Notes: generated by a model from the letters alone, not told the origin. Positions 16,930 through 48,760 are shown, counted from the first letter of the whole stretch. The stretch: DNA of 54,235 nt, filler included, from Sluysia triapertura (GCA_046118255.1; 4 parts of 4 records of this genome joined end to end with filler, not necessarily neighbours in it); one strand, 5' to 3'. Numbers and translations: made by a program.

Positions 16930-17029
16930 NNNNNNNNNNNNNNNNNNNNNNNNNNNNNNNNNNNNNNNNNNNNTTAATTAATTAANNNNNNNNNNNNNNN
17001 NNNNNNNNNNNNNNNNNNNNNNNNNNNNN
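16930..17029. other. Assembly gap with artificial TTAATTAATTAA linker
   Basis: N-run with a central six-frame-stop linker, identical in all three gaps. Confidence 0.97.
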
Positions 17030-17030
17030 T

Positions 17031-18011
17031 GAAAACTTAGTTCATGATGTGGCACGAATATTAGTTAAAGAGAATTGTGAAAACTTAGTTCATGATGTTA
17101 TACATATATTAGTTAAAGAGGATTTTGAAAAGTTAGTTCATGATGTTGCACTAATATCAGTTAAAAAAAGTCAAGCAGTATACGATAATCGTGAATGTTT
17201 ATTTTCTACAGAAGTCTACAGTATGCATTTTACAAAGAATGATGTAAACGAGGTGTTCAGATGTAAATACGATGAATTCAAGTCAATGCTCTATGATTCA
17301 TTCAAGCTGGTCTACGGTGAGGTATTAAATGTCAATGAAGAGATGAAGTATGCAAATAGCCTAAACGTTTGCTCGAATCAAGTATTCAATATCAGAAAAT
17401 TCGTGAGCCCTAAAATTAGTCTGGAAGATCAACCGAACCATATATTTGGCATCAATACAAACACGAGATACGCGAGCAACTCCGATGGCGCAGCGAGATT
17501 ACTATTGGGTAAGAGTTATAATCCTAGTAATTCATCTATAAATATTAACTACGCTTTATTTTATTATCTTTCTTCCAGATACAAGTATCAACAATCTGAA
17601 TCTATGAAGAAGGGAATACCTCTGAGGTGCAGCCACAATAACAATTTATGTCTTATCGAAATTTATGCAATATTAATAAATAAGTCCATAAAACATTTTT
17701 ATTTCAATGACTTCAAATTTTTGTTTAAAATCCCATTATTGAATGTTGTAAAAAAGAAATTTTATCTCAACGCAAAATCGAATACTGTTACTATTGTGTT
17801 AAATAATTGTTACAAAACCTTGCACTGTAGTTCGATTTTTAGGATTGACATAACTTTGACTGACGCTTTCGTCAACGAAAATCAGTCAATTGTACTTTTT
17901 CCACAATCCAAAAGCTTTAAACATACCATGCCACTCAGCCATTATAGCAACTCGAAATCTCATCCAATAGATTTATCCATACTTACTATACTTCCATATA
18001 AGTTCTTCTAA
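17031..18011 (+). CDS. Intronless orphan ORF, 5'-truncated at the gap, with N-terminal 16-aa tandem repeats; possibly a retroelement or viral accessory gene
   Basis: Open for ~326 codons in very AT-rich DNA. Three 48-bp units (ENLVHDVARILVKENC / ENLVHDVIHILVKEDF / EKLVHDVALISVKKSQ) begin right at the gap edge. No domain recognised. Confidence 0.55.
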   Translation, partial: ENLVHDVARILVKENCENLVHDVIHILVKEDFEKLVHDVALISVKKSQAVYDNRECLFSTEVYSMHFTKNDVNEVFRCKYDEFKSMLYDSFKLVYGEVLNVNEEMKYANSLNVCSNQVFNIRKFVSPKISLEDQPNHIFGINTNTRYASNSDGAARLLLGKSYNPSNSSININYALFYYLSSRYKYQQSESMKKGIPLRCSHNNNLCLIEIYAILINKSIKHFYFNDFKFLFKIPLLNVVKKKFYLNAKSNTVTIVLNNCYKTLHCSSIFRIDITLTDAFVNENQSIVLFPQSKSFKHTMPLSHYSNSKSHPIDLSILTILPYKFF

Positions 18012-22580: not shown

Positions 22581-23270
22581 GGTCTTAAGACCTAACAGCC
22601 ATTTACCTTTTCTTGCGTTTTATGTTTTTCATCAACTTATACAGTTAATGAATTGTGTAGGAGTGTTATCGCGCGGCATTATTAATCATTTCTTTGTAGG
22701 TTTCAAAAGCTTGAATATTATTATTATATTATTATTATAAAATTATTACTATTATGCTTTATGCAGTAGTACCACTTATTACTTGTATTTATTGTTATAA
22801 TCATTATTTCGCATATTATCAATATTATTGTTATTATAATTATGGCACAACCTAATACTTGTTTATTGTTAATACTTGAATATTTTTACTAAACGTTAAA
22901 AAAGAGCTATTTTATTCTGGATTTAATGGAAACGAACGTGTTTAAATCGCACAATTTGTTAAATTTATGAATATTCATTTGTTCATATGTTTACTATATA
23001 ATTTTCGTTAAGTTGATTATTGCTTGTGAAATTCGGATACATATAATCTTCTCGATCCGATGCTCGAAGGAATCATTGTCTAGGTGATTATTTAAAATTC
23101 TGTAAGCCATTGTTTTATGATTTTGTCAATCCATTCTTATATTTTGTTATTTTCTCACTGAATTTTAGTCATTTTTAAGTCTTATTTTTGCGAAGCATAT
23201 TTTAAAGTTATTTTTAGATAATGATTATTTTATACATTTAAGTTTCACTTATTGTATTTCATATTCCAAG

Positions 23271-23816
23271 GTATCATCAAGTGAAAATGGCATTATATTT
23301 GGCAATATTGTATACGATGTTGGTGGTGCTGCAGGTGAATGCAATTGTGTGGTGTTAAATGAAATACATATTGATATTCTTGAGTATCTCGAACCTGCAG
23401 GATGCTCTCGAACTGCTTATCGCAAAATGTGGACTGAATTCGAATGGGAAAACAAAGTAACTGTGAATACCAGAATATGTGACTTACACCAATATTTGAA
23501 GCATATTCAACAGCACACTAATATGCGATGCTTAACTCCTGCTGAAGCTATGCGAGGTCAATGTGATTATTTGTGTGTGACACTTTATGCACGTAGTGTG
23601 TTTGGTGAACATGTTTTAGCTAATTTGTGTTTAGAAAAACCTCCTGGTGAGTGTGAACCTGTTACTGGTCATTTGAGAATTCGAGCGAAAAGTCAAGGTA
23701 TGGCTGTAACTATGGGAGAAAAAGTAAGTGCGGCTCAGAAATTAACTCCAACTTCGGAAGCTATTGTTGGTCTAGAAAAAACAAAAATAATAATGCAAAC
23801 GGATGATGATTTTTGA
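23271..23816 (+). CDS. COPB1: Coatomer subunit beta, terminal exon
   Basis: Acceptor ...atattccaag, then [36 protein letters not shown]...[15 protein letters not shown]...TNMRCLTP...LYARSVFGE...[13 protein letters not shown], matching the conserved beta-COP appendage domain. Upstream exons not found in the window. Confidence 0.95.
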
Positions 23817-25572
23817 TAGTCAGTGGGTAGGAAATTTTTTATTATTTAATGACTTACAAATATGTTAATATAACTTGTTTTTATTTGATTTGTAAAATGG
23901 AATAGAAGACAAGATAAAATGGTATTTTATATATTAAGTGATAATTTGGGCTGGTTCAAAACCGATACAATTAATTTCTAACATTACAAGAAAATTCCCA
24001 AGATTATATACAAACTATAAATTTGTATACAATTATTCATTATCCCATTTACGTCTTATTTCCATTATTACTCATTTTTATTTTATCTTTTATACTTTCA
24101 CTAACTCTTAGTAATAAAATTTAATTTTTAACATAATTATTGATAGATTTTAATATCTACAAACATTCAGAATATGAACTCAAAGTTTTTAATAGATTCC
24201 TACAATCTTAACTCAAACTTTCACTTAACTAACAATAGCTCTAAGAGATTCAATACTTTCATATAATTATTTTATTAGTAAATACTGACAGATACAATCA
24301 TTTTCAAGTGTATGATTTGCAAATTGTGAATGATCTCGTCTTTCTGAATTTGAAATGATTGTGCTGCTTTATTTACTTACTATTTTCAATTTTAGATTAA
24401 TTTGTTTAACAATGCTCTAGTGTTTTAATTCAAATAGTTAACAATAAAAATTTTACTTAAACGATAATTACTTGCAATTATAACTGCATTGATATATTAA
24501 ATACTAATAGCAATATAGTAATAAAATAATAAATATAATAATGGTATTTAAAAAATAATTATTTAAAGTTTCAAAAAATATGAAATAATTATTATTTAGT
24601 AGTTTGCTATCCACTACTGTGAGTAGCTAAATTTTAACTAATAATGATAAATCGAAATTACAAATATATTTTGAAGGCAACAATTTATAGACAAGCATGA
24701 GAATTACATAGAATGTATGGTTTTATTAAAATAGAAATGAAAAGTTGAGATTAGTGTGTATGTAGTGCAAAGTTATTAAAAAGATTACAACTTATAGATA
24801 CCATTACGAAGGAAGGTAGTATGCTAGGATAACATGACAGTTCGAATTTTATGTGAACTTATTTATGAAGGCAGAAATAAATAAGGACATAATAAACGAC
24901 AGCTGAAGGATAATGCTCTAATAGAGTATATATAAAATGATTAGTCATACTTTGAGATAACAAATTACAATATTATGATTTATAGTAACTGCAATTCCGA
25001 CATTTAATTTGCAATGGTTTAATAGTAATTGAGTATAAAGTCAAATAATAATATCGAGTTCGGCGAGGTGTATCTTGTGTTTAATATATTGTTATCAGGA
25101 TATTTTAGACTTAGATTAGCTTTTTTATAGAATACAAACGTTTATGAATATGTTGGAGTAAAGGACTAAACAACCTAGAATAATAAACTATAATAAAACA
25201 AAATTGTTAGGCGGGGCTCGATTCTCGGTCGGTCTTTTTATTGAAGTCTAACAAATACCTAAGGAACTTGAATTCTTGAATCTAATCAAAACTTTAAAGT
25301 AATATAAATCTTTCATCTTAATCTTAAATTTATCACCTGACGATTTCAATAAAAGATTATCTAATAATAAACTTAGGTTCAGATTTCTTTCAATCTGACT
25401 AGCGGATTTTATTGTTTTTAAAAATTAATCTCCTAGTAACTTTTAAAAATTATTAAACGCAGTATTTTACTGTTTGCGTAGTAGGAAACAGACCTACCAA
25501 AGAGCAATAAAAAGTAAAACATGCGTATAAATAAACAAATAAAAAGAAAAACTAGTAATTCAGATTTTGAAA

Positions 25573-25636
25573 TGTTAAACTTCGTCAAATGGACAACTGG
25601 GAATCGAACCTCAGACTTCTGGCTGCGCAGTTCGAT
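25573..25636 (-). mobile_element. 5'-truncated copy of the tRNA-containing TG...CA element
   Basis: Minus strand ATCGAACTGCGCAG...GGTTCGATTCCCAGTTGTCCATTTGACGAAGTTTAACA aligns to the 3' half of 31178-31324. Confidence 0.75.
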
Positions 25637-26099
25637 AAATTGAAAACTTTTATTTTACGACCAAAACAAACACGTACATAATCAAATAATGTGGTACAAG
25701 AATTATAAATAAAGGGATCACATTTATATAAAAAGTAGTTAATGTAATAAGGCTGATACTGATTGTCCATTTAAGAAATTGTTATTCGTGCTGCTGCTGC
25801 CACTTGTGCTGTTGGTGATAAGGAAAATGTTAATTATTGTTGTTGAACTATACCACAAGCATACCATTGATAAGTCAGAAAAAACAAATAAAGATATTAA
25901 ATCACAATCACACCAATGATAAATCACAGAAATAAAGAAATGAGAATTTAGGAAAATATAAAAATAAATGAATACAAAGAAATACAAACAATTGAATACA
26001 AGATGAAAAGAAGAAGGAAATGAAAATGTAAAAGAGAATATCAGTTGTATAATAGATTAATTATTCTCAAAAACCAAAAGATTAAAGATTAAAAGTCCC

Positions 26100-26690
26100 A
26101 AGATAGAGGATAAACAAACGCATTAAAGTACCGAGATTAAATCACATATGACAACAATATTATTTATGTGGGATATGGAAGGAAAGGTCCTTGTAAGTAT
26201 TAAAGGAGGATTCAATGGAAAGTTTGATACACTGGCGTGCTAAACCAGTTATATCGGCCCTACGGAAACCTAGTTTTTCAGAAGGATATCATTTTCAGGA
26301 TCCCAAGAACCAAGTGCTCCAACGGTAAGCGTGTCAAGGGAAACCTGACATTTAGTTGTATTTGGAGCTTATCTCTCAGGTCAGAATATTCCGTAATATT
26401 GAAAATTCGGGCCCCCTTAAATTTCTCATAATCATTAATTGGCAACTTGACGTCAATGAGAAAAAGTTGGGAGGAATTGGTACCGTGCACTTGTATATCA
26501 GGTCTTCGGTAATGTTGGAATTAGTGAAGAGCAAAAGTAGATATAAAGGTTCAAGACTCAGGATAACAGAATAAGGTGAACATTATTGAGGAATTAAGAG
26601 AGGGGATTATGATAAGATAAGTATGTGAAATACTTGAATCAAGATAAGTCAATGAGAGTTAAGAAGAAATAACCTTTTGTAAGGTTTTAT
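26100..26690 (-). repeat. Dispersed repeat with decayed coding-like sequence; 26510-26690 is homologous to 43387-43575
   Basis: Minus-strand AAAACCTT...AAGG.TATTTCTTC, TTATCTTGATT.AAGTATTT, CTTATTCTGTTATCCT.AGT.TTGA and CTTCACTAAT.CCAACA occur in the same order at 43387-43575 (+). Confidence 0.65.
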
Positions 26691-27287
26691 TTGTTAAAAT
26701 ATTAAAATGCATTTGTTAATTAACTTAATTAAAAATTATTTAATTTGATAACTCAATAAAAAATGTTTGCTCATGATATAATGATATCAAATTTTGCCTA
26801 TATGTTAAGTTTTATTATTGGTTTTAGTAATGAAGCACGTCAACATAGATAACGTAAAATTAGTCATTTTAATTAATTTTGTAATTTAAAATTAAAGATT
26901 AAATATGTTCCAATGTCTGAACATTAATAAAGCATATATCAGATTAAAGCTTTTAAAGAAACAAGTCAGTATACGCTCTTGAGATTGCCGTGTAACGTAC
27001 CGTTAACGTCTTATATATGATATAAAATATTGTTATTAAAAGAAGTTTTATACTAGATTATAAATATAGGTAAATTATGATGATAATAATTTTTATATCT
27101 GTTTGTATAATTCCAATTGTGATATTAAATTGTGATTTGATTATTTTAAAGAGATATGGGATTGTTCTTCACAAAACTCATTATTTGTAGATAGTTGTCA
27201 GGCAATCCAAAGTCGGAAATTCATTGGAAATTTCATTTAGTAATGGGTCGAAATACAACGGAATCTAATAAAAATAGCATGTAGTAG

Positions 27288-27384
27288 TGTTGGGGTAAAA
27301 GCATAAAGTGCCCTGTAGCATCGAACTGCAAAGCTAGAGGCCCCGGGTTCGATCACCGGTCAGTCCATTTTACAAAGTCTAACA
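27288..27384 (+). mobile_element. Internally deleted copy of the tRNA-containing TG...CA element
   Basis: Begins TGTTGGGGTAAAAG...AAAGTGCC, keeps box B GGTTCGATCACC, ends GTCTAACA. Flanks GTAG / ATAG (4-bp TSD with one mismatch). Confidence 0.8.
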
Positions 27385-28499
27385 ATAGACATGCAAAATA
27401 ATTAAATTGAATTCCCGATTATCTGACAATTATCTCGATATTATACAAAGAGCTAACTTTTTACATAAAAAACACAACAATCCAGAAAAAACGACAACAG
27501 TAACTATTGAAACAACTTCTTGCTGTAAGGACGCTGGATTCAATTGAATCTTTTTCTTCAGTAATAATATTAAAATAAAAATAAGTTTACGTGGTTAGTA
27601 GAGAGTTAGGATTCATTTTGTCATTATTTTTTTATATTTTATATGTGGTAACAACATTCATGTTGTGTAACCCCTGCGATTTTTAGAGAGTTAAACAATA
27701 ATGTATTAAAGAATTTGATTTAAAGAAGTATTTTAACTATATAACAAGTTTGATTTATATAACTATAATTATGATATAAAGAAGTTGATTTTTAGAATTA
27801 TATTTGTCGCATAAGAGATTTGATTTGTATAATTGTTATATGAATATGTCGAGATTCAGTTTTTAGTTATTTTTTAGTTATTAAAGAGGGATATCAGTAA
27901 ACGATAAAACACAACAGTAGTCACCGGTAAGGGGTTTTTGCGTATCCATTTTGACTGAGAAGCCCATTTGTTTAAGTTTACTATGCAAACATTCGAGAAT
28001 CTTATTATGTCTGGCTGTACGGCCAATGATAGTTCGAGGACAAAGACATAGTACGTGGGCAATTGTTTCTCGTTCAAATTCACACCAGCGAAGCGTAATG
28101 GGAAGCTGCAGTCGAATGTTTTATGGAGAGAAATTAAGAATGCACTTTCTAGCCTTAAACATAAAAATCGAACTGTAGTTTTTTAATTGTAAAGAAAACA
28201 GACGACCAGATAGAGGACTTTTCATGAAGCATTTATCAAAGCGACCTTGGATTTTGTGGGATTTCCAAATATTGGTATTAAAATGTTAATCAGTTCATGA
28301 AGATATTTATCTACTTTCTCTTTATGAAACCGGTTTAATGTGACTTCGTTTTCACCAAGGATGGCGTATTTGATATTTAATTTTATTTGGTCCTCACATT
28401 AAAAGAAGCTAGCAGCAATTCGGTATTTTCGGCGCAAATTGGGGATAGATTGTCGAATTTTGGTCCACCATGTCAGAATTCATGAACGCTTATTGGTTT

Positions 28500-29870
28500 T
28501 ACCGCCATTAAGCCAAGATAGAGCATCAGAAATGTTTTCCACTTCTAATCTTTTAAAAGTATTATTAATATCTACTACGTGTGTAATAAAATCTTTTGAA
28601 AATATTATAATGTCATCAATATATAATATTACATTTTAGCAATCTGATAATACAACATTCATACATCTCTGAAATGTTGCTGATGCACTAGTTAGTTCAA
28701 CACTCGTATAATTCGTCTCCACTGCAAAAGCTGTTTTATGTATATTTTCCCGCTATTTCAATTTGCCTATAGCCATTTGGAGATCTAAAGCAGTGAAATA
28801 TTTAACGTTTCCTAATTTATCCAACATTTCGTCAATTCTTGGTAGTGGAAACACATCTTTCCTCGTAATTTTATTTAATTCTCTGAAGTCGATACAAAAT
28901 ATCATAGTTCCATCCTTTTTCTTGACTAATAATACTGGTAAGAAAAATGGTGAAATTTTTGGTCTAATGACTCCAGCCTTTTTCATTGATTCAATTTAAT
29001 CTTTCATCTCTTGTTGATTGCACATAGGTATTCTATATGGTTTCTTTCTGATAATTTTATCTTCTAGTAATGGAATTACATGTTTTATTATCATATGTCA
29101 CATTTATTTCTAGCTATTACCCAAGGATATCGATAAATAACCTTATATAGTAGTTCCTTGTTAAAGTTTTGGTTTTAATTTATATCTCTTCATAATCTTC
29201 ATAATCTTCAGTATCTATATCTCTTTGTAATTTGATATTTTTACTTTTTGGTTTATTATTTAATTCAAATTTATTTGTGATTATAACTTATAGTTCACTG
29301 TTTCCCCTAATTTTGTTCTTGCAAATAACCATTTATTTTCTTCCGAATAATCTATTATTCTTATTGGAATATTACAATATTCATGATTATTTTTCGAATG
29401 AATAAACATTATCGGACCCGTTTCTTAAAATATATATTGTGTTAGACTTAATATCCAAAGAGGTTCTTCTAATATAACATCATCGTCATCTATTGGTCTG
29501 TCAGTATAACTGTCCATTAATCTTGCTTTATTGAAATCTAGTTAAACTCCTTTTAATTGTGATAACACGTCCATTCATAACATCCTATTTTCGGGACATT
29601 TTCTCATTACCATGAATTTAATTTCAATTTTATTTTTCCCAATTTCACACAATATTTTCAAGACTCCAAGAATTTCGACTTCATCTCCTGTCATTCCTGT
29701 TAAATACAAATATTATTAAGTTCTTTTGTAGTTAGCGTTGATTCACTTATTCGAGAATCTACTAATTCTCATAACATTCTTCCGTTTACTTTCATATCCA
29801 CCATAGGTCTTCTTGCACTATTATAATTATTGTTTGCACAGATCATGTAAACTAAATTTCTTTGAGAAGG
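28500..29870 (-). mobile_element. Decayed Ty3/Gypsy pol: aspartic protease, reverse transcriptase, possible RNase H end
   Basis: Protease RPMVDMKVNGRML*ELVDSR. RT KAGVIRPKISPFFLPVLLVKKKDGTMIFCIDFRELNKITRKDVFPLPRIDEMLDKLGNVKYFTALDL ... HKTAF ... SATFQRCMN ... YIDDIIIFS. Then abruptly SDALS (RNase H-end-like ADALSR). Confidence 0.92.
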
Positions 29871-31177
29871 TTCATTTTAATTAACTGGTTCAATATTAAT
29901 TGTTTGTAATGCTATTTCCTCTGTTTGTTTTCTTTCTTATTTGAGAACATTTTATTGTGAATGTGCATGATGATGTAATAAAAATTTAGCCAAAATGGAA
30001 AACATCCTATTATCAGTTTCCATGTAAAACCTGATATTTTATATATGCCTACCACTGAAAATATCTGAGATAAAGTAAGATCAATAATTTTAACTATTAT
30101 GAATATATCTATTAATTCCGAAAATGCATGTCCTAATACTAGAAAACTTCCCCATATTTGTTCTAATGTATTGTGTGCAGATTTCTTAAAATGATGTGAT
30201 CCTAGTAATGATTCAAAATTTACTTTACCATTCTTTTCTACTAATGCTTTATCTACAATTTCTGTTAAAACTTTTGATCTTTTGATAGGGAATAATATTT
30301 CATACCAAGATGCTTGTATGTCTTCATGTGAATATATTCCTGATCTAAGGATATTTTGGTAGCTGAAAATTTTAATTTTGACTTTAACTATGTTTATGAT
30401 ATCCATAAATTATCATCAATTTCATATTCTGATGCCATCACGTTAGAACAGTATAGTGTTTTTGGTTTTAACCTATTAGTTGGTATAATTATTCTTGTAA
30501 CCGGTTTTAAATAAATTGGTTGATTTTTATACGTAACTGGTAATTCATTGGCACATTCATTTTCTTGTCTAATCTGTACTTCAACTTTCTTACATTTATA
30601 AGTATATAGTACTTCATTTATTAATCTGCGAAATACTCCTTATTCTAAAGGAAGTAATGGTGCTACTAGATCTGTTTAGTAATTGCTACGGCTAATTTAG
30701 TCCTTACAATTTATTTATTTAACTGACAATCTCTAGTTATCATGGCTTGATAAACTTTTTCTAGTGGCATAAATCCTAAATGGTAATAGAAGTCTATTTT
30801 ATTATTAAAATAAGTATTTAGTTTCAAATTCTTTGTGTTTTTACTTTACTTTGGATAAGTAAATACCATGATAATATGTTTATGTAATTTCTTGACCATA
30901 TCTAACAAATAATAATCCGTCATCTTTTTTATTAGCCACTAGTAATGTAGGTGTTTCTACTTTGTTAAGCCTTTTTCTTTGTGGTGAATCTAAATTATCT
31001 TTGTAAATTTGTTTTTATTTATTTCTTCTACTGCCAATTCTTCATCATCTTGATACATAAATACGAAAACTAGACTAAATTTAATATTAAAGGACACTGA
31101 ATTTTTTTCAATTCATATATTAATGTTGATTCACCATTGTCGCAGCTTGTTTGATCACTTTTACAAAATGGTCCTGA

Positions 31178-31324
31178 TGTTAGACTTCGTAAAATGGACT
31201 GACCGGGAATCGAACCCGGGACCTTCGCTGAGCAGTTCGATTGCTCTACCACTGAGCTATCAGCCCCGTCTAACAGTTTTATTTTATTATATTCAATGGC
31301 ACTTTAGGCCTTTTTTCCCCAACA
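31178..31324 (-). mobile_element. 147-bp element with TG...CA ends and a tRNA-like cloverleaf (solo-LTR/Helenus-like), inserted in env
   Basis: Minus strand: TGTTGGGG...TGTTAGAC-G-GGGCTGATAGCTCAGTGGTAGAGC...CCGGGTTCGATTCCCGGTCAGTCCA-TTTT-ACGAAGTCTAACA. Flanks TCAC/TCAG. Removing the element plus 4 bp restores the env frame (LEKGTMMS-GPFCKSDQ). Confidence 0.85.
31195..31266 (-). ncRNA. tRNA-like sequence (intact acceptor, D and T arms; unpaired anticodon arm) within the element; probably not a functional tRNA
   Basis: Acceptor GGGCTGA/TCAGTCC, D arm GCTC/GAGC, T arm CCGGG-TTCGATT-CCCGG, boxes A and B present, TTTT terminator immediately downstream. The anticodon stem does not pair; the 27288 copy has CTGCAAA (Cys-like). 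Confidence 0.6.
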
Positions 31325-31752
31325 GTGACATCATAGTTCCTTTTTCTAAATCAAAACTTTCATTGAAAGATCGTAAACTTATAATACTTGTTTCTTGTGC
31401 TAATACATTATTATAAATTTTCCATTCGTGTTCGATTGAACCTCTTTCACAAGTACCATCTAATAATTATTTTCTCATTATTTTTTATTTTAAGTTTATC
31501 TTCCTTATTTAAACTTATATGCCCAGTTTCCAAAGCGTCTCGACATTTATCTTAAATGGTTTTAATACATTAGAAATATCGATAATTGATGAATTGCTAT
31601 GATGTCCACAATACCTTATAACTACAGACCTTTTAACCGAACATTATCTAACCTCGAATGTTAAACTTTACTTTATTTTTATCGACATGATTATTAATTA
31701 TATGATTTTCAGTTAAACTACAAGAAAAATAGTCGAAAAGTTTGTAACAGCT

Positions 31753-31852
31753 NNNNNNNNNNNNNNNNNNNNNNNNNNNNNNNNNNNNNNNNNNNNTTAA
31801 TTAATTAANNNNNNNNNNNNNNNNNNNNNNNNNNNNNNNNNNNNNNNNNNNN
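31753..31852. other. Assembly gap with artificial TTAATTAATTAA linker
   Basis: Direct reading. Confidence 0.97.

Positions 31853-31923
<71 letters not shown>
31853..31923. repeat. (AAT)n microsatellite at contig edge
   Basis: Direct reading. Confidence 0.95.
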
Positions 31924-31925
<2 letters not shown>

Positions 31926-33599
31926 CTAATATATCATGTTAGATGCATTTAAGTATAAATTTTTGATAATCATTGTTTAATTTAGAATGTTTTTCTAACA
32001 ATTGAGTGAATTTTAAATGTATATAAATATATTCGAACTTAAAGCTCTGGATGAAACATCATTACAAAAGTTGATCTTCAATTCACAAATTTCATTATAA
32101 AAGACAGCATTTTCTTAATTATTCTTATGAATTATTTTGTAATTAGTTAACTTTAATAAACATGGAACAGAGACATCCAAAAAATAACCAGTAGAAGTTC
32201 ATATTAATAATGTTGAATAATTTATAAAAATAACATGAAATAAATACTTAGAAAATGTATAACATATTGTATAGTCTAAACGGCGAGAATGTGATTGTTT
32301 AGAATAGTCGATAAATTTACAAGTGATACCGAGTTATTTCTTTTTATTACTAGCTGGTCATCGATCAAAAATACGCCTCAGCTGTTATTTATGTTTAATT
32401 TAATTAGAATATATTATTCTAGCAAAAAATAGTATTATAAACATGCCATTTTCTTTTACAAAGGATGAGTTTAAGATAACATTACATTTCATAAGTACAA
32501 AACTTTCTTAATTCGTACTGTTTTATTTTAAGTACATAAAAGTTTGTCTTTTGGATCTTATAATTCAAATTACAAAATATCAATACTGATATTTCTGTGC
32601 CCAAACCAATAGTAGTGATAAAAATAAACACTTTGAGTTGTTTTATTACTATCAGTAATCTTGTATAGTTTCATAGTTATAAGGATTAGACTCATGGTGA
32701 CTATCAATCAAAGATCAAATGATAGTCATCCATCCATTAAATATCCATGTTTTTGTTGACTTTCATCTTTATATTTCGTATTTCTATGACGTTGCATTCG
32801 AATGAATGATTTGTTCATTTTAGCAATATAATATCAATAATATCTTTTATTGATAGTTCTTTCACTTCATTACCAGATAACAAATTTGATCTTAAACAAT
32901 GTAACAGATAATTTCTTAAAAACAGCCCTTATGATTAACGCTGTATACCAAACACACAATTCAATCTTATACCACTCTTGGTACAATATTTTCAGTATTC
33001 TGAACTACCTTGGATAAATCACTAACTTTACTTCTCTTTTGCATTTCCAAAATTTTTATGTAAATATCAATTAATTCGATCCATATTGTAAAAAGCTAAG
33101 ACATAAAATATCTGTTCTAGATACTGTTACTTATTGATCAATGTTAATTTTTTGTGTCCTTTAATAATAAGTTGTTAACAGTAATTTTTAATAAGTTATT
33201 AACATAGGCCAGTCACATTTCAGTTGGCTAACATTATTTTGACCTCTAGGACAGTTTTTTAAAGTAAAAAATAGTTATCATTAGATAATAATATCAATTG
33301 GATCTATGGTAAATTAATTTATATATCATTAATTCTTATGAATTTATTATATGTACAAAATTCGAAATTTTCAATTATTGATTTAAAGAATTTAAATTAA
33401 CATTTGAGTTGTACTTACACATTTGATATATATATCTAGATTTATATTTCTCGTTTATTATTATTGTACTTCTATTACTATTATTATTAGTTACGATAGT
33501 AAATAGATCATATTTACTATTCTTATAATTATTATTACATAAAAGTTACATGAAATATCGATATTTCATAATATTTGTGAAATGTGATTATTTGGTAAA

Positions 33600-34350
33600 T
33601 GGAGTAAATTAATATATTGCACATGTTAAGTAGGTAGCACAAGTAAAATTTCAAGAGTCATTTGTTTTATGTCTATTTCTTGGTTTAATCCAATTACTAT
33701 TTGTAAGTTTATGTATTTCTTTTATATTAATACTGTTTGACGATATTTTATCATTTTATTGAATATTATAGTCATGGATTAAAAATTACAATGAGTGTTC
33801 CAATTATACAATTATTTATATTCATTTGTTGTTTGCATAGTGGTTAAATTAAGTAAATTAACATAAATTAACGCAACTCAGTATTTATTTGAATCAAGAT
33901 AATTATTATTTACTGGCATTAGTTTTGGTTTCTGCTTATGACTAATTAAATATGATAATAAACATGTAGCTGATTTAGCTATCTTTAGTGATGATAAAAA
34001 TGTGTAATATTTGGTTTTTGGCGAGTCATTATTAAATGACGGTGTTTTTATGGTTTTGTATTATGTATTACAATGTAATTTTTCTCTTGTTACTGCGATG
34101 TTATTTACTGGCAATTTATTGATATTTTTATTTATTAATATTTTTTGTTTTTTGTTTAATCAATCGTTGTTCTAAAGGATTACTTGGTTATGTTGAATAT
34201 CTTATTCGAAGTAAATTAGTGACTGAAACAAAAAATTTTGAATGTTGATATTAAAATGTTCGATTTTATAACGAATGTTTGAACTAAACGTTCGATGACT
34301 GTTTGAATTAAAGATAAAAGTTAAACGAAAATAAAATAATATGGTGAGCC
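33600..34350 (+). pseudogene. Decayed Na+/H+ exchanger (SLC9A/NHE family) fragment
   Basis: 33966-34073 reads VADLAIFSDDKNV*YLVFGESLLNDGVFMVLYYVLQ, matching the NHE signature DPVAVLAIF...LVFGESLLND(A/G)V..VLY. Flanking frames are hydrophobic but broken, so boundaries are approximate. Confidence 0.7.
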
Positions 34351-37300
34351 ATGCATAATTATTATTGTATGTTGTTATACGCAGAATTAGTTGATTGTAT
34401 AAATGAAATAATAATGTAATTATATAAAGTTACTGAAAAATAGTATGATATGCTGAATAGTGAAATATGAATAAGTTTAAATTTAATAATAATTAAATCT
34501 TGCAATATAAATAGGAATTTTATAATTGTGAATACTGCAGGAATATAATTATAAATAAAATTTATATGTGAATAATTTTTCATCAATTTTTAATATAGTT
34601 ACAGATGAAATATAATTTTATAAATAGTAAGTAAATAATTTTAAGGAATTTCAATATTGTGTAAGTATCTAACATTTTGTGTTTAATTAGGTTGGGCATT
34701 TTATAAACAGTTTGATCTAAGAACAGTTAATTCGCTATTTAAATCCTTATAAATTGTAATTTGTGAGTTTTTTATTATTATATCGTAAATATTTATAAAT
34801 TTTTTTATAAAAAAAATTTTAATTTCTTTTATGAACGATAACGTTCGAAAATTTTTTGTGCATTTGAAAAAGATCTGCTTTTTAATTTTGATTGTTAATA
34901 TAGACTTAATAAAGTCTCATTTTTAATAAACCAATAAAATATGCCTAATATAAGAATGGCAAATTAAATTAGACTAGAAATTATAAGAAGATATGAAATT
35001 GGTGCAGCAAATGATTTCAGTATCAATATTCTTATTAATTTCTAAAAAAATTAAGTAACAAAATGCTTAAATTATTTGACAAGATGATTCAATTGCATGA
35101 AAAACCACATTAAGATTCCAGAATTAAACAATTATGATTTGAGTTAAAAGAATTGAAAGTGAAGTCAAACTTATGCAGAACTTATAAAGTATTTTCATAT
35201 ACGCATAAAGTTTTAAATGTTGGAATTATATAATAATTCAAACACGTCCTGAAACCTCTGAAACACCCTTATATTACACTCTTCTGGTCATAATAATCAT
35301 TATTTTTACTAATATTAAAATATTCTATAAAATAAATATTCAAGAAACCTTAAATAAATTTATTTTTAATTTGCATAAATTTATTAATTTATATGTTTGA
35401 TTATAAAATATTCTTTTATTTTTATCGTTAAAATTTTATTGTGTTGTGATTATTATTATTATTATTTTTATATTTTATTAGTATAATAATTATTATATTA
35501 ATACATATTTATTATTTTATTATTAAAATATTGACATTCAAGGTCATTTATCTTTGAAAATATACTAGAAATTTCATTCATGACGGCAAGCATTCAGATA
35601 AGCTGTAATAATTCAAGTAACCATGACAATGCTATTTTAAATTCAACAATAATTCGAAATCTGATTCAAAAAAAGCTAATATAAATGTTAAAACATCATT
35701 TGATGATCCTAATGATGTCAAGATGACATGACGCTTTAAATTTTTTGAATTTTCATTATTTTACCGATGAAATGAGGACAAGTAGTTTACCTTTTGATAT
35801 TCGAATCGAAATTTTTAACTCATTCACTTGAAAGATTATCATAACTTAATATATTTAGCAAAGTTTTTATCAGTGATTTAGATAATTTATTAAGCATTGT
35901 TCATGATAAGGAAGTACATATTGTAAATTTTGTAAATATTGTAAATCACAAATAATTTCTATGTTTAATGTTTAAATTTTATGTATATAAATAATTTGAG
36001 TAAAAATTTCAAAGATTTCAAATTTTAATTCTTAACTTTAAATTTTTATGTAAATATTTTAATTTTTAGAAAATTAATGCAAAACATTTATTAATGTAAA
36101 AAAGTGAATGTAATTTTTTATTTATTTATAAGATAATTTAGTTAGAAGATCTATGTAATCATAGAAAGATAAGCAAATACTTATTTTTATCAAATATCAA
36201 ATATTTTTTACGGCACAAAACTAATAGAATTTAATTCTCGGAAAAGATTTAAAAATATCTAAACATATAAATAAGAAAACAAAACCAACAAATCTTACAA
36301 AATTTATACGTACTATTATTGTTGTTATGGAACGCTCAAATTTTCTGAGGAAAATATTTATTGGAATAGAATTTGGAATATCGGAGATGGTTTTACAGAT
36401 GAATCATTGGAAAGTCTTTTATCGAGTTTATTCATTAGTGGATCTCTACGACTATTTCATTGTTTGATCATTCAGTTATTATGAATAAGTGAGTTATTTT
36501 TGTTAAGGCTTTAGCATGAATTCCTTTCTTTAAAATACACCTAAAATATTTCAACTTGAATCCAAGCAATCACCTGGATTAAAATTTTTTGTAAACTCAG
36601 TTTTATCATACGAGAAATCCCGTTATTATTTATTATTTGTTACTATATATTTGTATAAACAATTTTTGTTAATTCATAATAAATAGCTTTGTTGTTCTAG
36701 TGAATATTAAATGATAAATTAATAATAACATTTTGTATAAAGATAAATTCGGTATAAGAACATTAATTTGATTATTAACTTTTGTTTAAAGAATTTAAAA
36801 GGTTGAATCGTAATTTTTTGAAAGTTATAGGAAAGTAATGTAATTGAAGAGACTATCGGATTGTATGCAATAAGTATTAAGGCATTTTTACGAAGGAATT
36901 TTCTTGACATCTTGTGAATACGTCTTCCTTGGGATACAAACCGTATATCACAGGCGAACCCGAAAATTAAAATTATAATTGTTTCTACCAAATTAATAAA
37001 GGTAGAACATTTCAATCGTAAATTAGTACTTCCTTAACTTCTTTTTGACTGAAACTTGAACTTCTTATTATTTATTAAACTTAAATGTCCTCAACCTTAT
37101 TACTTGATAATTGTTCCTTCTCTATAGGATTCACTTATATTCTGAATACTTAAAACTTATTTATTACTTCCTTGGTAATAATCTATTTCTTTTTACAAAA
37201 TCCTTAATTTAACCAACTAATCTTAATTTTAATCTGTCTACAAAATATCTAATTGAAAACCCTTTAATATGCTTTCTTAATCGATTTAATTACAAAACTC

Positions 37301-39002
37301 TTAAAATAAATTCAATTATAAAACTCCTAATATCAATTGAATTACAAAAACTCTCAATAGTAACTCAATTACAAAAACTTTGAAAATTTTAACTTTTAAC
37401 ATTAATGTAATTACGAAACTTTTAAAATCCTTAATATTACAAAGCCTTTAATATTAATTCAATTAGTAATAACTTTAATTTTACAAATTAATAAACTCAA
37501 ATTAACAATACAATTTAATATAAAATAATTATACAAATTAGACCTTTTAATCCAATAAATATAAATTCAACTATACACCAAACGTAAGAAATTAATAAAT
37601 AATTCACTGACAATTAAAGAAGCTTTTATGTACAAGATATGTTTAAAATTTCATTATTAAAATTTCTTTTAATATGCAATAATATTTTACAAAAATACTA
37701 GTGTCACTAGTTTAATCTAGAAAATCAAAAAATATAAGTTAAGTAATTAATTCATTTTTCCGTTAAAAGAAAAAAATCGACTTAATAACAACCAACTTGC
37801 ACGTTACCAATGATCATCGATAAGTTCAACGATATTTAATTTGTCCGTTGTCCGGTAAATCTTCCTGAATATAGCAGTAATTAATGGTGTTTCGTCTATC
37901 GGTTATCCATCAATTCTTCCAAAATCTGTTAATCCCTATTTGTCTGCTGCCGATTGAAATTTTTTGTAAATAGAGAGTCCGGCTGATGAATGTATTTCAC
38001 TTCGTTTATTAAAGACTTAAAATCAACATTGATTTTTGTGTCTGCCTAAATCGTTATCTTCTTTATACACCCTAATTTTATCATTTAGCAGCTGTTTAAT
38101 TTATCACAATTAACTAGGTTTTCTAAACTAATATATTATAAACTAATTATTTTTTATTCTCATCATATCAGAAGAGGTTTTATTTTTCGTTTAATTTTCA
38201 TTTAACTAAATTTTATTATTTAGATCACAGTTTAAGTAATTATTTTTATTATTAATATATTTAAAATTAATATTATATTATTATTATTATTATTTCTTTT
38301 TCAGGTGATTCTGATTATGACAAAAATATCAATTCCAATGATTCCATCGCATAGGCATTGTTTCATAACCCTTCGCGAACATTTAATTATTTGTATTACT
38401 ATTGCTATATTGTTATTATTATCATGCTTATATCAATTATTCTCACTGAAGTCGTATCCATTAAATGTGCTGTCGTTTTTCTGAATTTAACCCCTATCAA
38501 AAATATTTTTTAGCAGGGTCAGGTTACAGCAACCAACGGGCAACGTATAGTGGGCGTTCCTGTAATTTTATAAGCTAATATTTTATCTGAATATAAATGT
38601 TCTGTAGTTGGAATCTTAATAAGTGCTTAAATATTGTAATTTTCTCAAAATCTTAATTTATTCTAAAGCTTTTAATAATTAAATAGAAAAAATTATTAAT
38701 TTTATTCACAAAATACAAAAGTTTTATAGTAATAACAAAACAAAAGACAATAAAAAAGGTATTTTAAGGATTAAAGCTCCGAGGGTGTTTAATCTAATAT
38801 AGTGCTCCTCAATATATCGTGGACACAATAATTAAAATAATTGAAAATTTAAGTCAATTTTATAATTTCAACTTCATAAATTACAAATTAATGGAATATA
38901 ATCGAATAATTGTTGCTCTGCGAATATTTCCAAAATATTGACCAAACTGTTAATTGTGAACAATCACTAAAATTTCACAATTACTCCAACAAAGACGCTA
39001 CA

Positions 39003-39447
39003 AATAATAATAATAATGATAATAATAATATATTAATTTATATTGCTCTCATATATACTGCAAAGTAAGTACTCAAAAGCGCTTAAGATAAGGTATTACA
39101 TGAGATCTCTTCCAATTTAGATAATTATTCTTGCTGTTTGATTAAATATCAATTGTAATTTTATGTATTCATAACTTGTTTCATCAGTTTTTTACTTCTC
39201 AATTTCCTTTCTTTGCAGCGCTTTATTCTTCGTAGCTCAATAATCTCCTAATCAATCACACCACATTTTTGCATTTTAAAGGTGCATACTTGTTTAAATA
39301 AAAGTATAATGTTCTGTTGTATAAATTGCTTAATGTATCTACATTGACTGTAAAATTTGTTTCTTTTTTGAACTTGCTCAATAAGTTTGTGCTCAGCTCC
39401 TCAATATCAATGTTTGATAAGTTTAGATGATTCAATAAGGGTATCAC
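39003..39447 (-). mobile_element. Internally deleted L2/CR1-group LINE copy
   Basis: ORF2 tether-like LSNLYNRTLYFYLNKYAPLKCK is joined almost directly to the same 3' tail as 10240-10300 (GCTT.TGAGTACTT...GCAGTA.ATATGAG.GCAATATAAATTAATATATTATTA) plus (TTA)n. Confidence 0.65.
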
Positions 39448-40055
39448 GACAACTTAACAAAGGGTTCGAATTTTTGACCCTCGGAAGTTTGTCCATTTCG
39501 GTCTCATTACGGAGAGCTACTTGATATTTGTTGTGTCAAGGATGAATTTCATTGTTGAAAATTTGTAACAATTTTTTGTAATTGTAAATTCTTGTAACGC
39601 GTAAAATTTGAGTCTTATTTTATTTTTATTTTACGGACTTTATAAAGTAATTGTTTAAATTTAAAATCATTATTTTTATTATAAATATAATTAAATTAAT
39701 AATTTAAGAAAGATAAAAATAAAATTATTTAATGTAAAATTAAAAAATTTTTTTATTATTTAAAATTAAAATAAATGAAATAAATAAAAATTCTATTTAA
39801 TTGGTAAAATTTTTAATATTGAATTTATTTTATTTGATTATTTAAAAATTGTTTGAATGAATCTATTTAGTAAATAGTAGACATTTTCCAATATGATGTA
39901 AACTTTAGGTAAGTTTTTAGCAAAATTAAACACAAAAATTTTAGAATTAACTTTAGTCAGTGTTCCAGCAATTTTATATTCGAGAAGAAACTTTTATTGC
40001 TCCAGCATATTTTTAATGTCCATGTTTAAGTAATTTTTTATTTTATAAGATTTAT

Positions 40056-40416: not shown

Positions 40417-41092
40417 GTTACATAATATAAAGTAATTGATTATAACGTTGTACTTAAGTATAATTGATACACTTATAGTAAGCTAATTAAGTATACAGTT
40501 AATACACTCTCTTTAAGTTGATTTTAATCTAAGTTTTTTGATAAGTATAAATCCTAATAATATGTCTAAAACATGTATATTAGGCGAATCGACCCTCAGG
40601 TACTTTGTAAGTGCTAACCGTAAATTCTGACCTTTCTTCATTGATTTTCGAGTATTTATTTCCGAACCATTTAATCAATTTAAATTAGGATTATTATTGA
40701 TAAAATCTCATAGAGTTGCCTATCCTTAGGTTGAACGACGCTCACTATGGGCGAACCTATTAATAATTCTCATTTTGCATGGGTCTATACAAAATCTTTG
40801 ATATAAAAACCTTGTAGATCTCTTATTTAGAAAGTAACGAATTTTAAATGATCAATATTATAAGTATTCTTATAGGTTAAACTCATAATTTTTATTACAC
40901 TGTAATTTTTTCAAAATTACATAACAATAAATGTATTTTGTATTTCTTTAAAATTATTTCACCCAATAATATTATTAATTTAATTTTGCTAAGAAAATCT
41001 AACATGTGTATCACGAATACAAGTGATTTTAGTATTCATTGGTTATACAGATGTATAAAATAAATGAATTGGCCAATTTTATTTTAATCACA

Positions 41093-41992
41093 ATGAATGT
41101 ATCTCAGTATAGTGAAATCCATTGTAATAGTACCATTTTTAATCGTCTACCACCACCAATGGCACACTTTATTGCCTTTTTTACAATAGGTTTCATTGGT
41201 TTATTCTTGAATAGCACTTTATTGTATTTATATGGTAAATATCCACGACAAATATTTGGTAAACGAAAATCTTTTCAAGTTCTCATGTTATGGTTAGCAG
41301 TATTCGATTTAATGTCATCGATTGGATTAAGTCTAGAAAATGCAGTATTGATATATTTAATGGAACTACCTATTTATGTCTTACAAATAATGGTATCAAT
41401 GCGTAATATGTTAATAATTGATGAATTTATAGTTTTCATAGTAATCGGATTGGATCGATTAATGGCTGTCATTAATCCAATTAGTACAATATGGTCAGAG
41501 AGATTTGTTTGGAAATTATTGTGTTTACTAATTGTTTTAATAATACCAATCGAAATAATTTCTCGAGTAATCTATACTGTGCATTATTATAATTGTCGTT
41601 TAGTATTTTATTATCTTCTAACTTTATATTATTCATATAAGACAATAATATCAATTCTTTTGTTTACTTATATTTTTATATATTTAATGTTACTTATTGT
41701 CATCATTCAGAAAATATTTAAAAATAAAGACGAAATAAATAGTAGAAAATTTCGATTTATTTTAAAAGTATCTATCGTTATATTTGAATGTGTAATGTTT
41801 TATCTGATAACATTTTTACCGTGTTACATAATTTTAATAAGAAATGAAAAATTACCTGTTACAGTTGTACATATTATTTTACTAAATAGTGTAGCAAATG
41901 GATCAATATTTATTATTAATTCTCATTTTCTTAGAAATATTATTTTCAGACGAAAAATTGCTATCAATACACAATCTGAAAGTTTGAATTAA
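41093..41992 (+). CDS. Single-exon rhodopsin-family (class A) 7TM GPCR, divergent orphan type
   Basis: Seven hydrophobic segments; TM1 GLFLN, TM2 LAVFD, TM3 IGLDRLMAVINP, TM6 ITFLP, TM7 NSVANGSIF. N-terminal N-glycosylation sequons NVS and NST follow the likely ATG at 41093; ATG 41051 is an in-frame alternative. Confidence 0.88.
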   Translation: MNVSQYSEIHCNSTIFNRLPPPMAHFIAFFTIGFIGLFLNSTLLYLYGKYPRQIFGKRKSFQVLMLWLAVFDLMSSIGLSLENAVLIYLMELPIYVLQIMVSMRNMLIIDEFIVFIVIGLDRLMAVINPISTIWSERFVWKLLCLLIVLIIPIEIISRVIYTVHYYNCRLVFYYLLTLYYSYKTIISILLFTYIFIYLMLLIVIIQKIFKNKDEINSRKFRFILKVSIVIFECVMFYLITFLPCYIILIRNEKLPVTVVHIILLNSVANGSIFIINSHFLRNIIFRRKIAINTQSESLN

Positions 41993-42150
41993 TAAATTTC
42001 CCATTAAAGAACTAAAGAAATCATGGGACTTTATTAGATAATTATTGATATAATACACTTTATATCAAAATATATTAACATTAATTTGCATCTTGTTATA
42101 AATTTTATCCTTATACTTTAAATTTATACTAGTTTCATTTCATTAATTAA

Positions 42151-42575
42151 ATCCATTTTTAATCGTCTACTAACACTCATACCAAACTTTGTTTATTTTT
42201 CAATAGCACTTTATTGTAGCTAAATTGTAAATATCCACGATAAATATTTGGTTAATGTCATCGATTGGATTAAGTATAGAAAATACATTTAATGGAAGTA
42301 TCATTTTATGTTCTACAAATAATGATATATCAATATATTAATAATTGATGGATTTATGGTTTTCATTATTATCAGATTAGATCGATTATTAATGGCTGTC
42401 ATTAATCTAATTGGTAGAGCATGGTCAGAGAAATTACTGTGTTTAATATTAATTGTTTTAATATTACCAATCGAATAATTGACACTATCAATTGTAATAA
42501 TTGTCGTCTTGTATTTTATTGTTTTTTTATTTTATATTATTTATATCAGTTAATAATACAATTCTTTTATTATTA
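42151..42575 (+). pseudogene. Decayed tandem duplicate of the GPCR (TM1-TM5 region)
   Basis: Collinear blocks shared with 41133-41660 (CCATTTTTAATCGTCTAC, AATAGCACTTTATTGTA, AAATATCCACGA, TTAATGTCATCGATTGGATTAAGT, TTAATGGCTGTCATTAATC, ATGGTCAGAGA, AATTGTCGT) with many deletions and stops. Confidence 0.9.
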
Positions 42576-43286: not shown

Positions 43287-43386
43287 NNNNNNNNNNNNNN
43301 NNNNNNNNNNNNNNNNNNNNNNNNNNNNNNTTAATTAATTAANNNNNNNNNNNNNNNNNNNNNNNNNNNNNNNNNNNNNNNNNNNN
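43287..43386. other. Assembly gap with artificial TTAATTAATTAA linker
   Basis: Direct reading. Confidence 0.97.
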
Positions 43387-43575
43387 TAAAACCTTGTAAA
43401 GGCTTATTTCTTCGTATTTTTCATTATTTTATCTTGATTTAAGTATTTTATATGCTTATCCTAATATTACAGTTCATCATAATACCTTACCTTAGTTCTT
43501 TAATAACGTTCGACTTATTCTGTTATCCTAAGTTTTGACCCTTATATTAACCCTTTTCCTTCACTAATCCCAACA
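43387..43575 (+). repeat. Dispersed repeat, second copy of 26510-26690
   Basis: See the 26100-26690 feature. Confidence 0.65.
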
Positions 43576-45786: not shown

Positions 45787-45911
45787 TGTTGGACTTCATA
45801 AAATGGACTGCTCTACCTACTGAGATATCATCCCCGTTTAACAATTTTATTTTATTATAGTCAATATTACTATCATAATTTTACATAGCACTTTAGGCCT
45901 TTACCCCAACA
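45787..45911 (-). mobile_element. Internally deleted copy of the tRNA-containing TG...CA element
   Basis: Plus strand TGTTGGACTTCATAAAATGGACTG|CTCTACCTACTGAGATATCATCCCCGTTTAACA...GCACTTTAGGCCTTTACCCCAACA. Both termini are retained, T and anticodon arms are deleted, and no clear TSD is seen. Confidence 0.8.
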
Positions 45912-48239: not shown

Positions 48240-48760
48240 ATCATTTTAGAAGTAAATCACAATCGTTAATGTGACGAAGCAAATTTCGTTCTCTAAGAAC
48301 ACGTGTCAAGTTTTGAAATCAAGCCAAGGCGTTTCAAGTGATCACGAAGGGTGAATTTCGACAAATTTAATCTCACGAATTGTTATTCGGAGGTTTGCCT
48401 TTATTTTGTCTTCATCGGCTTCAACAAGCCCTCCAAAACGTGGTCCATCTTCAACATCGAAGTTGCCAGAACGAAATTTTGCAAACCAATTTTGGCATTG
48501 TTGTTCGGTCAATACATCTTCTCTGTAGACATCACATAATTCTCGCCTTGCTTGAACTGCATTTTTACCTTTCGATAGTAAAAAAGGAAAATATGCCGAA
48601 AATGCTTTTTTCGATTTTCCAACTTTGATAGGGCACCAATCAAAAACTTTTGCAAAGCATCAAACAAACAAGCCTTACTATATCAGCTGTCAAAATTTTT
48701 TATGTATCGGCTTAAGTGTGAAGTTGGTTATGAAAAATTAAGAAAATAAGTCTTAATACT
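48240..48760 (-). mobile_element. Mariner transposon 5' remnant (mellifera-like subfamily, tentative)
   Basis: Broken translation from ~48622: ENRKKHFRHIFLFYYRK/KNAVQARRELCDVYREDVLTEQQCQNWFAKFRSGNFDVEDGPRFGGLVEADEDKIKA...DHLKRLGLISKLD...ERNLLRHINDCDLLLK. Upstream TGACAGCTG is typical of mariner 5' regions. Confidence 0.88.

What the first reader, a model, noticed from the sequence alone, without database searches (positions are those of the whole stretch)
28500..31750. Gypsy element with a chuvirus/gB-like envelope directly upstream of, and apparently fused to, protease-RT
Seen: on the minus strand the order is env (31750-29912), protease (from ~29830), RT, then an RNase H-end-like SDALS. After one frameshift near the last TM segment, a single frame interrupted only by decay stops reads LAKFLLHHH...ERKQTEEIALQTINIEPVN*NEPSQRNLVYMICANNNYNSARRPMVDMKVNG..LVDS, leaving no room for gag between env and PR. 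No integrase is recognisable after RNase H. Established: env-bearing Gypsy elements are canonically gag-pol-env. Inference: this lineage encodes an ...env-PR-RT-RH polyprotein with gag and integrase further upstream (beyond the gap), i.e. an atypically organised, once potentially infectious flatworm retroelement. Similar arrangements may already be catalogued.
Basis: partly seen in the sequence, partly recalled or inferred. Interest (0 to 1): 0.7.

Follow-up and report, generated by a model that had tools for sequence, protein, structure and literature searches.

The report
Decayed flatworm gag-env-pol Gypsy retrotransposon fragment
This is a broken piece of a flatworm jumping gene whose virus-like envelope protein sits directly in front of its enzymes, an unusual order that has already been described in flatworms.

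Summary
The env-before-protease-RT order is real, but it is already published. The minus strand holds a chuvirus-type fusion glycoprotein (Pfam PF24664), one protease and a Ty3/Gypsy RT. The copy is dead: 27 stops, 7 frame changes and a tRNA-derived insertion. Of the 19 closest env relatives, 12 continue into a protease in one chain. Four long relatives read env-PR-RT-RNase H-integrase, and gag marks lie before env. The five RT-bearing env polyproteins are also the five best RT matches of 126, so the junction is not a chimera. Two first-reader points fail. SDALS is not the RNase H end: it lies 32 codons after YIDD, against 259-263 in relatives. RT is cut there, probably by an RLE-type LINE fragment. 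Integrase follows RNase H in relatives and does not lie upstream. In-frame env between gag and pol was reported for planarian Burro (PMC6431247), and GAG-ENV-POL gB-type elements for flatworms, nematodes and bryozoans (PMC13524379). The host is a flatworm outside flukes and tapeworms. Verdict: an ordinary decayed member of a known kind.

The parts
31753..31852 (.). Assembly gap (44 N, 12-nt linker, 44 N); hides the start of env and whatever lay upstream
   Evidence: the same linker occurs at 16930-17029 and 43287-43386
31326..31752 (-). env ectodomain, first preserved piece (homology shown for 31652-31326; about 70 residues into the env of P0127)
   Evidence: tblastn P0129 445-563, E 4e-7
31184..31325 (-). 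tRNA-derived repeat (probable SINE) inserted into env; includes ARAGORN tRNA-Ser-like 31195-31266
   Evidence: env resumes at the same residue on both sides (P0127 334/331); 4 further partial copies in the window
29990..31183 (-). env ectodomain domains and C-terminal membrane segments (30148-30050, 30016-29990), in several frames
   Evidence: PF24664; tblastn 28-61% identity to 14 relatives; hydropathy
29829..29989 (-). Cytoplasmic tail and linker between env and protease; no room for gag
29548..29828 (-). Single retropepsin-type aspartic protease, degenerate, split by a frame change near 29700-29720
   Evidence: profile of relatives' proteases: positions 53-109 iE 3.5e-8, positions 7-50 iE 0.26; P0132 619-670, E 9e-5
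29092..29547 (-). PR-RT spacer, collinear with relatives
   Evidence: P0233 1464-1867 aligns continuously over 29703-28531
28531..29091 (-). Ty3/Gypsy-type RT, YIDD at 28623, truncated about 30 codons after YIDD
27900..28530 (-). Unrelated sequence beginning at SDALS; probable linker/zinc-knuckle part of an RLE-type non-LTR retrotransposon (C-X8-H-X4-C at 28084, first Cys absent; R..RH at 28012). Boundaries approximate
   Evidence: motifs seen; motif set from PMC5678591 and PMC4838377; Pfam found 0 families in 3 of 3 frames, so this is an inference
26200..26513 (-). Probable restriction-like endonuclease part of the same LINE fragment (RPD..D at 26505, G..G.W at 26320), separated from the knuckle by about 1.4 kb of other repeats
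   Evidence: Pfam 0 of 3 frames

Best explanation
The stretch is a dead, doubly truncated copy of a flatworm Ty3/Gypsy LTR retrotransposon of the GAG-ENV-POL type with an HSV-gB/chuvirus-like class III envelope. In the living lineage one long reading frame encodes gag, env, protease, RT, RNase H and integrase in that order. Likely mechanism (inferred, not shown): the polyprotein threads through a membrane. Gag stays cytosolic, an internal hydrophobic segment at the start of env sends the ectodomain into the lumen, and the C-terminal membrane segments return the chain to the cytosol. There the element's own protease, tethered just behind the env tail, releases the enzymes. Particles could then bud with env on their surface and pass between cells. 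This copy lost its 3' half inside RT, where a fragment of an RLE-type LINE now follows. Its 5' part is hidden by an assembly gap, and it has accumulated stops, frame changes and a tRNA-derived insertion.
For: Shown: env, PR and RT are collinear with natural polyproteins. 12 of the 19 hits at E<=1e-10 have a protease after env in one chain. P0123, P0129, P0233 and P0235 read env-PR-RT-RH-IN, and P0132 reads env-PR-RT-RH. Gag marks lie before env in P0135 (Retrotrans_gag, E 1.7e-4) and P0126 (zf-CCHC), with CCHC knuckles in 4 of 10 long relatives checked, including P0129, which also carries IN. The five best of 126 RT matches are the five env polyproteins that contain RT (179-185 bits; next 171). 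Spacings match. The break after the membrane segment falls inside a motif that is continuous in 12 of 12 relatives. The natural relative P0134 folds at pLDDT 80; all 35 PDB rows listed are herpesvirus gB (best E 8e-14, TM 0.18-0.35 by query), and chuvirus-type glycoproteins lead the viral library (E 5e-42). Hydrophobic segments flank env on both sides in 6 of 10 long relatives. Literature: PMC6431247 section 7; PMC13524379 Results.
Against: This copy has no continuous frame, so fusion is inferred from relatives. The relatives are predicted proteins from unnamed contigs whose hosts and gene-calling code I could not check. 7 of the 19 best env hits show no protease (short, or ending at or within env). 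Gag, LTRs, PBS and TSD were not found in the window. RT clade support is only SH-aLRT 86 and the window's branch is long. The LINE assignment has no database hit. Fold TM-scores to gB are low, and the fold is of a relative. Topology, processing and infectivity are untested.
Confidence: 0.87

Rival explanations
1. One reading: an env-PR-RT-RNase H polyprotein with gag and integrase both upstream, beyond the gap.
For: No integrase is seen downstream, DALS resembles the RNase H end (recalled motif), and the upstream part is hidden by a gap.
Against: DALS lies 32 codons after YIDD against 259-263. No RNase H match is found. Integrase follows RNase H in 4 of 4 relatives that reach it.
Confidence: 0.02
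2. The env/PR junction is a deletion or nested-insertion breakpoint between two ordinary gag-pol-env copies or two unrelated elements.
For: The region is heavily decayed and full of secondary insertions; the N-half of the protease matches weakly (iE 0.26).
Against: Env and RT independently pick the same relatives. Env-to-PR spacing is within the natural range. The same junction occurs in 12 of 19 top hits.
Confidence: 0.04
3. Same gene order, but in this family env ends at its own stop (29912-29914) and pol is a separate or ribosomally frameshifted frame rather than fused.
For: The env ORF 30409-29912 is stop-free and ends after the membrane segments. PMC13524379 describes GAG-ENV-POL as ORFs and never uses 'fused' or 'polyprotein'. 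The env ORF frame scores best in 3 of 12 relatives.
Against: The frame change falls inside a conserved motif that is continuous in 12 of 12 relatives, and the other frame scores best in 8 of 12 (193 against 119 summed). Six other frame changes in the copy are plainly decay.
Confidence: 0.07
4. Side question: SDALS is a true RNase H end brought next to RT by an internal deletion of about 230 codons, and the LINE fragment starts a little further on.
For: DALS occurs once in the six frames, in frame with RT; Pfam does not identify the downstream sequence.
Against: No match to the residues after RNase H or to integrase follows it; the N..AD.LS spacing is absent; RLE-LINE motifs follow on the same strand in the published order.
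Confidence: 0.1

Closest known systems
GAG-ENV-POL 'ancient errantiviruses' with HSV/gB-type ENV of Platyhelminthes, Nematoda and Bryozoa (Chary and Hayashi 2026, PMC13524379)
   Same: Ty3/Gypsy pol preceded by a chuvirus/gB-like env; flatworm host. Supplementary file 1 lists 9 flatworm elements (Macrostomum 1, Prostheceraeus 2, Schmidtea 6), all ENV_HSV.
   Different: Those are intact, mostly multicopy elements; this is a decayed fragment without gag, RNase H or integrase. Its host may be a lineage with no annotated element in that survey. No direct sequence comparison was possible.
Planarian Burro / GYPSM1 giant Gypsy elements (Arkhipova and Yushenova 2019, PMC6431247, citing Jurka 2007 and Grohme 2018)
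   Same: One polyprotein with env in frame between gag and PR-RT-RH-IN; env related to mononegavirus fusion glycoproteins.
   Different: Burro ORF1 is about 4,900-5,100 aa with BCL2, BIR, ankyrin, MATH and other domains. Here one protease joins env to RT over about 470 codons, with no extra domain seen. In the env tree the window sits weakly (81/84) with compact single-protease relatives, outside the clade (98) holding the Bcl-2-bearing and multi-protease proteins.
Non-canonical nematode ERVs with ENV before POL (Sacco et al. 2022, doi 10.1099/jgv.0.001739; not held, seen only as cited in PMC13524379)
   Same: Metavirus with an RNA-virus-type glycoprotein placed before pol.
   Different: Nematode hosts; the eLife paper finds GAG-ENV-POL elements are not one clade.
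Anakin BEL/Pao elements with chuvirus glycoprotein (Dezordi 2020, PMC7642597; search listing only, and as cited)
   Same: Same env family on an LTR retrotransposon.
   Different: BEL/Pao pol in mosquitoes; here the RT matches Gypsy-type RTs.
Troyka LTR retrotransposons (PMC12440569)
   Same: Aquatic-animal LTR elements with a single polyprotein.
   Different: [quoted passage not shown] Rejected.

Membership tests
Ty3/Gypsy (Metaviridae) | RT of the Ty3/Gypsy type | tested here: met
   RVT_1; the top 120 homologues carry Gypsy-type domain sets; 46-49% identity to env polyproteins. No labelled reference set (GyDB) was available.
Ty3/Gypsy (Metaviridae) | pol order PR-RT-RNase H-IN | tested here: inconclusive
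   PR-RT is seen in the window; RH and IN are lost by truncation. The full order is met in 4 of 4 relatives that reach IN.
Ty3/Gypsy (Metaviridae) | LTRs, primer-binding site, target-site duplication | tested here: inconclusive
   No flanking repeat among the 20 of 33 families shown or by self-BLAST of 25500-40000; both ends of the copy are missing.
GAG-ENV-POL HSV/gB-type errantiviruses (PMC13524379) | env of the chuvirus/gB class III type | tested here: met
   PF24664 on the window; the fold of natural relative P0134 matches gB and chuvirus G. A sequence profile found 0 PDB hits at E<=0.1.
GAG-ENV-POL HSV/gB-type errantiviruses (PMC13524379) | env upstream of pol, within 2 kb | tested here: met
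   About 260 nt from the last membrane segment to the protease aspartate.
GAG-ENV-POL HSV/gB-type errantiviruses (PMC13524379) | gag upstream of env | tested here: inconclusive
   Gap at 31753-31852; 5 of 6 pre-env queries had no hit in the window and one had a chance-level hit (E 0.38) elsewhere. Met in relatives.
GAG-ENV-POL HSV/gB-type errantiviruses (PMC13524379) | phylogenetic placement with the published flatworm elements; RNase H plus 'mini' bridge domain; cysteine-bridge type | not testable with these tools
Burro / GYPSM1 | env in frame between gag and pol | tested here: inconclusive
   Met in relatives (P0129, P0135); this copy is broken.
Burro / GYPSM1 | giant polyprotein with accessory domains (BCL2, BIR, ankyrin, MATH) and >30 kb length | tested here: inconclusive
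   No accessory domain between env and RT here; the pre-env part is hidden. Not filed as Burro.
RLE-type non-LTR retrotransposon (downstream fragment) | CCHC knuckle, RH, K/RPD-D, K..KY and G.W motifs in order | tested here: inconclusive
   Knuckle (first Cys absent), RH, RPD..D and G..G.W are in order on one strand; K..KY is not clearly present; no Pfam hit.
Troyka | no envelope protein; CG..CG termini | tested here: not met
   env is present; termini not testable.

The most novel reading that the evidence does not exclude
The host is a parasitic monogenean flatworm. The fragment would then mark a compact, single-protease gag-env-pol lineage in parasitic flatworms, where the published survey annotated no element among 50 cestode-, monogenean- and trematode-labelled assemblies. 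Its all-in-one membrane-anchored polyprotein would fix gag, fusogen and enzymes at 1:1:1 and tether the protease to the env tail, an assembly route unlike that of retroviruses.
Probability: 0.3. Interest if true: 0.4.

Novelty: new member of a known kind. Interest (0 to 1): 0.2.

Why it matters
The organisation itself is not new, so this copy adds at most a host record. The lineage is of real interest: a class III fusogen translated in one chain between capsid and enzymes raises open questions of topology, processing and cell-to-cell spread in flatworms, and PMC13524379 says entry by gB-type env is unknown. A dead fragment does not make those questions more testable; intact multicopy elements are already catalogued in Schmidtea and Macrostomum.

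Tried and rejected
Word-indexed search with the env ORF among longer proteins: 0 of 357 candidates scored; the exhaustive search then found 111. The RT word search gave 326 hits; none of the 120 listed carried PF24664 in its precomputed domains, but that search stops at 2,000 residues and did not return the known env polyproteins. Troyka was read (parts 1-3 of 5) and rejected. An env profile against PDB sequences gave 0 hits. Pfam on the downstream region gave 0 families in 6 of 6 frames, so the LINE identity has no database support. One piece in the first stop count was read in the wrong frame and was recounted. Trees dropped rows: RT 83 rows including the window, from 126 proteins, keeping those covering at least 170 residues; env 98 rows including the window, from 113; COPB 26 of 120 hits, chosen by name, with no triclad or monogenean among them. 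In one search the label 'solo' only means not found with a protease at that point; P0198 later proved to have one. Pfam covered 30 of the 111 env hits. Sacco 2022 is not held. Paper searches for monogenean or other flatworm env elements found 0 papers at 5 of 6 terms and nothing further on Burro beyond PMC6431247.

Full report
Setting. The window is 25% G+C with three identical 100-nt assembly gaps. A coatomer-beta exon at 23169-23816 has flukes as best named matches (68-73% identity), then tapeworms (64-69%) and Macrostomum (64%). In a tree of 26 chosen hits it groups with flukes plus tapeworms (100/100) but outside both. No triclad or monogenean was in the tree and the branch is long, so the host is a flatworm of undetermined class.

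What is in the sequence. On the minus strand, PF24664 (Monjiviricetes fusion glycoprotein) matches profile positions 366-473 and 468-610 of 653 in two frames, and RVT_1 matches further on. tblastn with natural relatives tiles env from 31652 to about 29990, and PR to RT from 29709 to 28531. A profile of relatives' proteases finds one protease in two halves, 29828-29697 (iE 0.26) and 29718-29548 (iE 3.5e-8). Eight aligned pieces contain 27 stops and 7 frame changes. A tRNA-Ser-like repeat, with four further partial copies in the window, interrupts env at about 31325-31184, and env resumes at the same residue on either side. The copy is dead.

Is env fused to pol? An exhaustive search with the stop-free env ORF gave 111 hits, 19 at E<=1e-10. 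Twelve of the 19 continue into a protease in the same chain; the other seven are short or end at or within env. P0123 (2,855 aa), P0129 (2,627), P0233 (3,003) and P0235 (4,844) read env, one to six proteases, RT, RNase H, integrase; P0132 reads env-PR-RT-RH. Gag marks precede env: Retrotrans_gag in P0135, zf-CCHC in P0126, and CCHC knuckles in 4 of 10 long proteins, among them P0129. The distance from the membrane anchor to the protease aspartate is 87.7 codons here and 87-347 in 14 relatives; protease to YIDD is 379 here and 401-408 in five. These proteins are predictions from unnamed contigs, which limits the evidence.

Is the junction a chimera? The window RT was compared with 126 proteins (120 from an RT search, plus 6 from the env search). 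The five best scores belong to the five env polyproteins that contain RT (179-185 bits); the next, P0286 at 171, is a pol fragment in the same clade. Tree support is moderate (SH-aLRT 86). The env tree puts the window in a 22-row group (97) that holds all 14 proteins then known to be protease-fused, apart from the free-standing chuvirus-like proteins of about 650 aa. Env and RT thus point to the same lineage.

SDALS lies 32 codons after YIDD, whereas the RNase H end lies 259-263 codons after it in three relatives. The RT match ends at 28531. RNase H, integrase and C-terminal queries from five relatives find nothing downstream. What follows on the same strand shows C-X8-H-X4-C (28084), R..RH (28012), RPD..D (26505) and G..G.W (26320). 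This is the motif order of restriction-like-endonuclease LINEs in PMC5678591 and PMC4838377 (passages seen). Pfam gave no hit there, so the assignment is an inference. Integrase is therefore missing by truncation, and in relatives it sits after RNase H, not upstream.

Envelope class. The unaltered relative P0134, 30-48% identical to the window's env pieces, folded with mean pLDDT 80. All 35 PDB rows listed are herpesvirus gB (best E 8e-14; TM-scores 0.18-0.35 by query), and chuvirus-type glycoproteins lead the viral library (E 5e-42). A sequence profile alone found no PDB match.

Mechanism. Shown: the domain order in relatives, and hydrophobic segments at both ends of env in 6 of 10 long relatives. 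Inferred: gag cytosolic, env luminal between an internal signal and C-terminal anchors, protease and enzymes cytosolic behind the env tail, self-processing, and budding with a class III fusogen. Infectivity is untested here, and PMC13524379 calls entry by gB-type env unknown (Discussion part 1 of 2).

Comparison with what is known. [quoted passage not shown] Chary and Hayashi 2026 (PMC13524379; abstract, all Results, methods section 14, part of the Discussion and flatworm rows of supplementary files 1 and 6 seen) report that flatworm, nematode and bryozoan elements carry only gB-type env and are GAG-ENV-POL. They list 9 flatworm elements from three free-living species. Of 55 flatworm assemblies, 3 were annotated. 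Among the 50 labelled as cestode, monogenean or trematode, 3 had one ENV-POL env candidate each and none was annotated. I could not compare sequences with those elements directly, and figure supplements were not readable. Sacco 2022 and Grohme 2018 were seen only as citations. Troyka lacks env.

Verdict. The upstream-integrase idea and the RNase H reading are wrong, and the organisation is already in print. This is a decayed, compact (single-protease) member of a known kind; the only open novelty is the host class. Interest 0.2.

Noticed in passing
P0123, P0126, P0127, P0135, P0233, P0235: Many relatives carry tandem aspartic proteases between env and RT (two to six stretches); P0235 adds ankyrin and C2H2 domains, and P0134 has a Bcl-2-like domain before env, as in Burro.
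   Followed up: partly
P0123, P0129, P0233, P0235, P0286: These polyproteins continue about 500-1,500 residues past integrase, with hydrophobic segments in the four scanned and no Pfam family for most of the tail.
   Followed up: no
P0129 = HBK71150.1: A gag-knuckle-env-PR-RT-RH-IN polyprotein is labelled as a Flavobacteriaceae MAG protein; probably animal sequence in a bacterial bin (inference).
   Followed up: no
window 28530-27900 and 26513-26200 (-): Probable RLE-type LINE fragment split by about 1.4 kb that includes a tRNA-derived repeat (27320-27384) and a repeat shared with 43387-43575 (73%).
   Followed up: partly
window 31184-31325, 45787-45912, 27320-27384, 25189-25253, 25573-25636: A dispersed tRNA-derived repeat family, probably a SINE.
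   Followed up: partly
window 48342-48659 (-): Mariner/Mos1 transposase HTH fragment (PF17906, E 1e-15).
   Followed up: no
window 41033-41992 (+) and about 42150-42560: A 319-aa intronless hydrophobic ORF that looks like a seven-transmembrane receptor by eye (no Pfam hit), with a degenerate tandem copy just downstream.
   Followed up: no
window 17030-18011 (+): A 326-aa ORF starting at a gap with three 48-nt repeats; no Pfam family.
   Followed up: no
window 16930-17029, 31753-31852, 43287-43386: Three gaps carry the same artificial 12-nt linker between runs of 44 N; adjacency across them is not assured.
   Followed up: partly
PMC13524379 supplementary file 6: Schistocephalus solidus is listed under Monogenea; by my own knowledge it is a cestode, leaving three true monogenean assemblies surveyed.
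   Followed up: no
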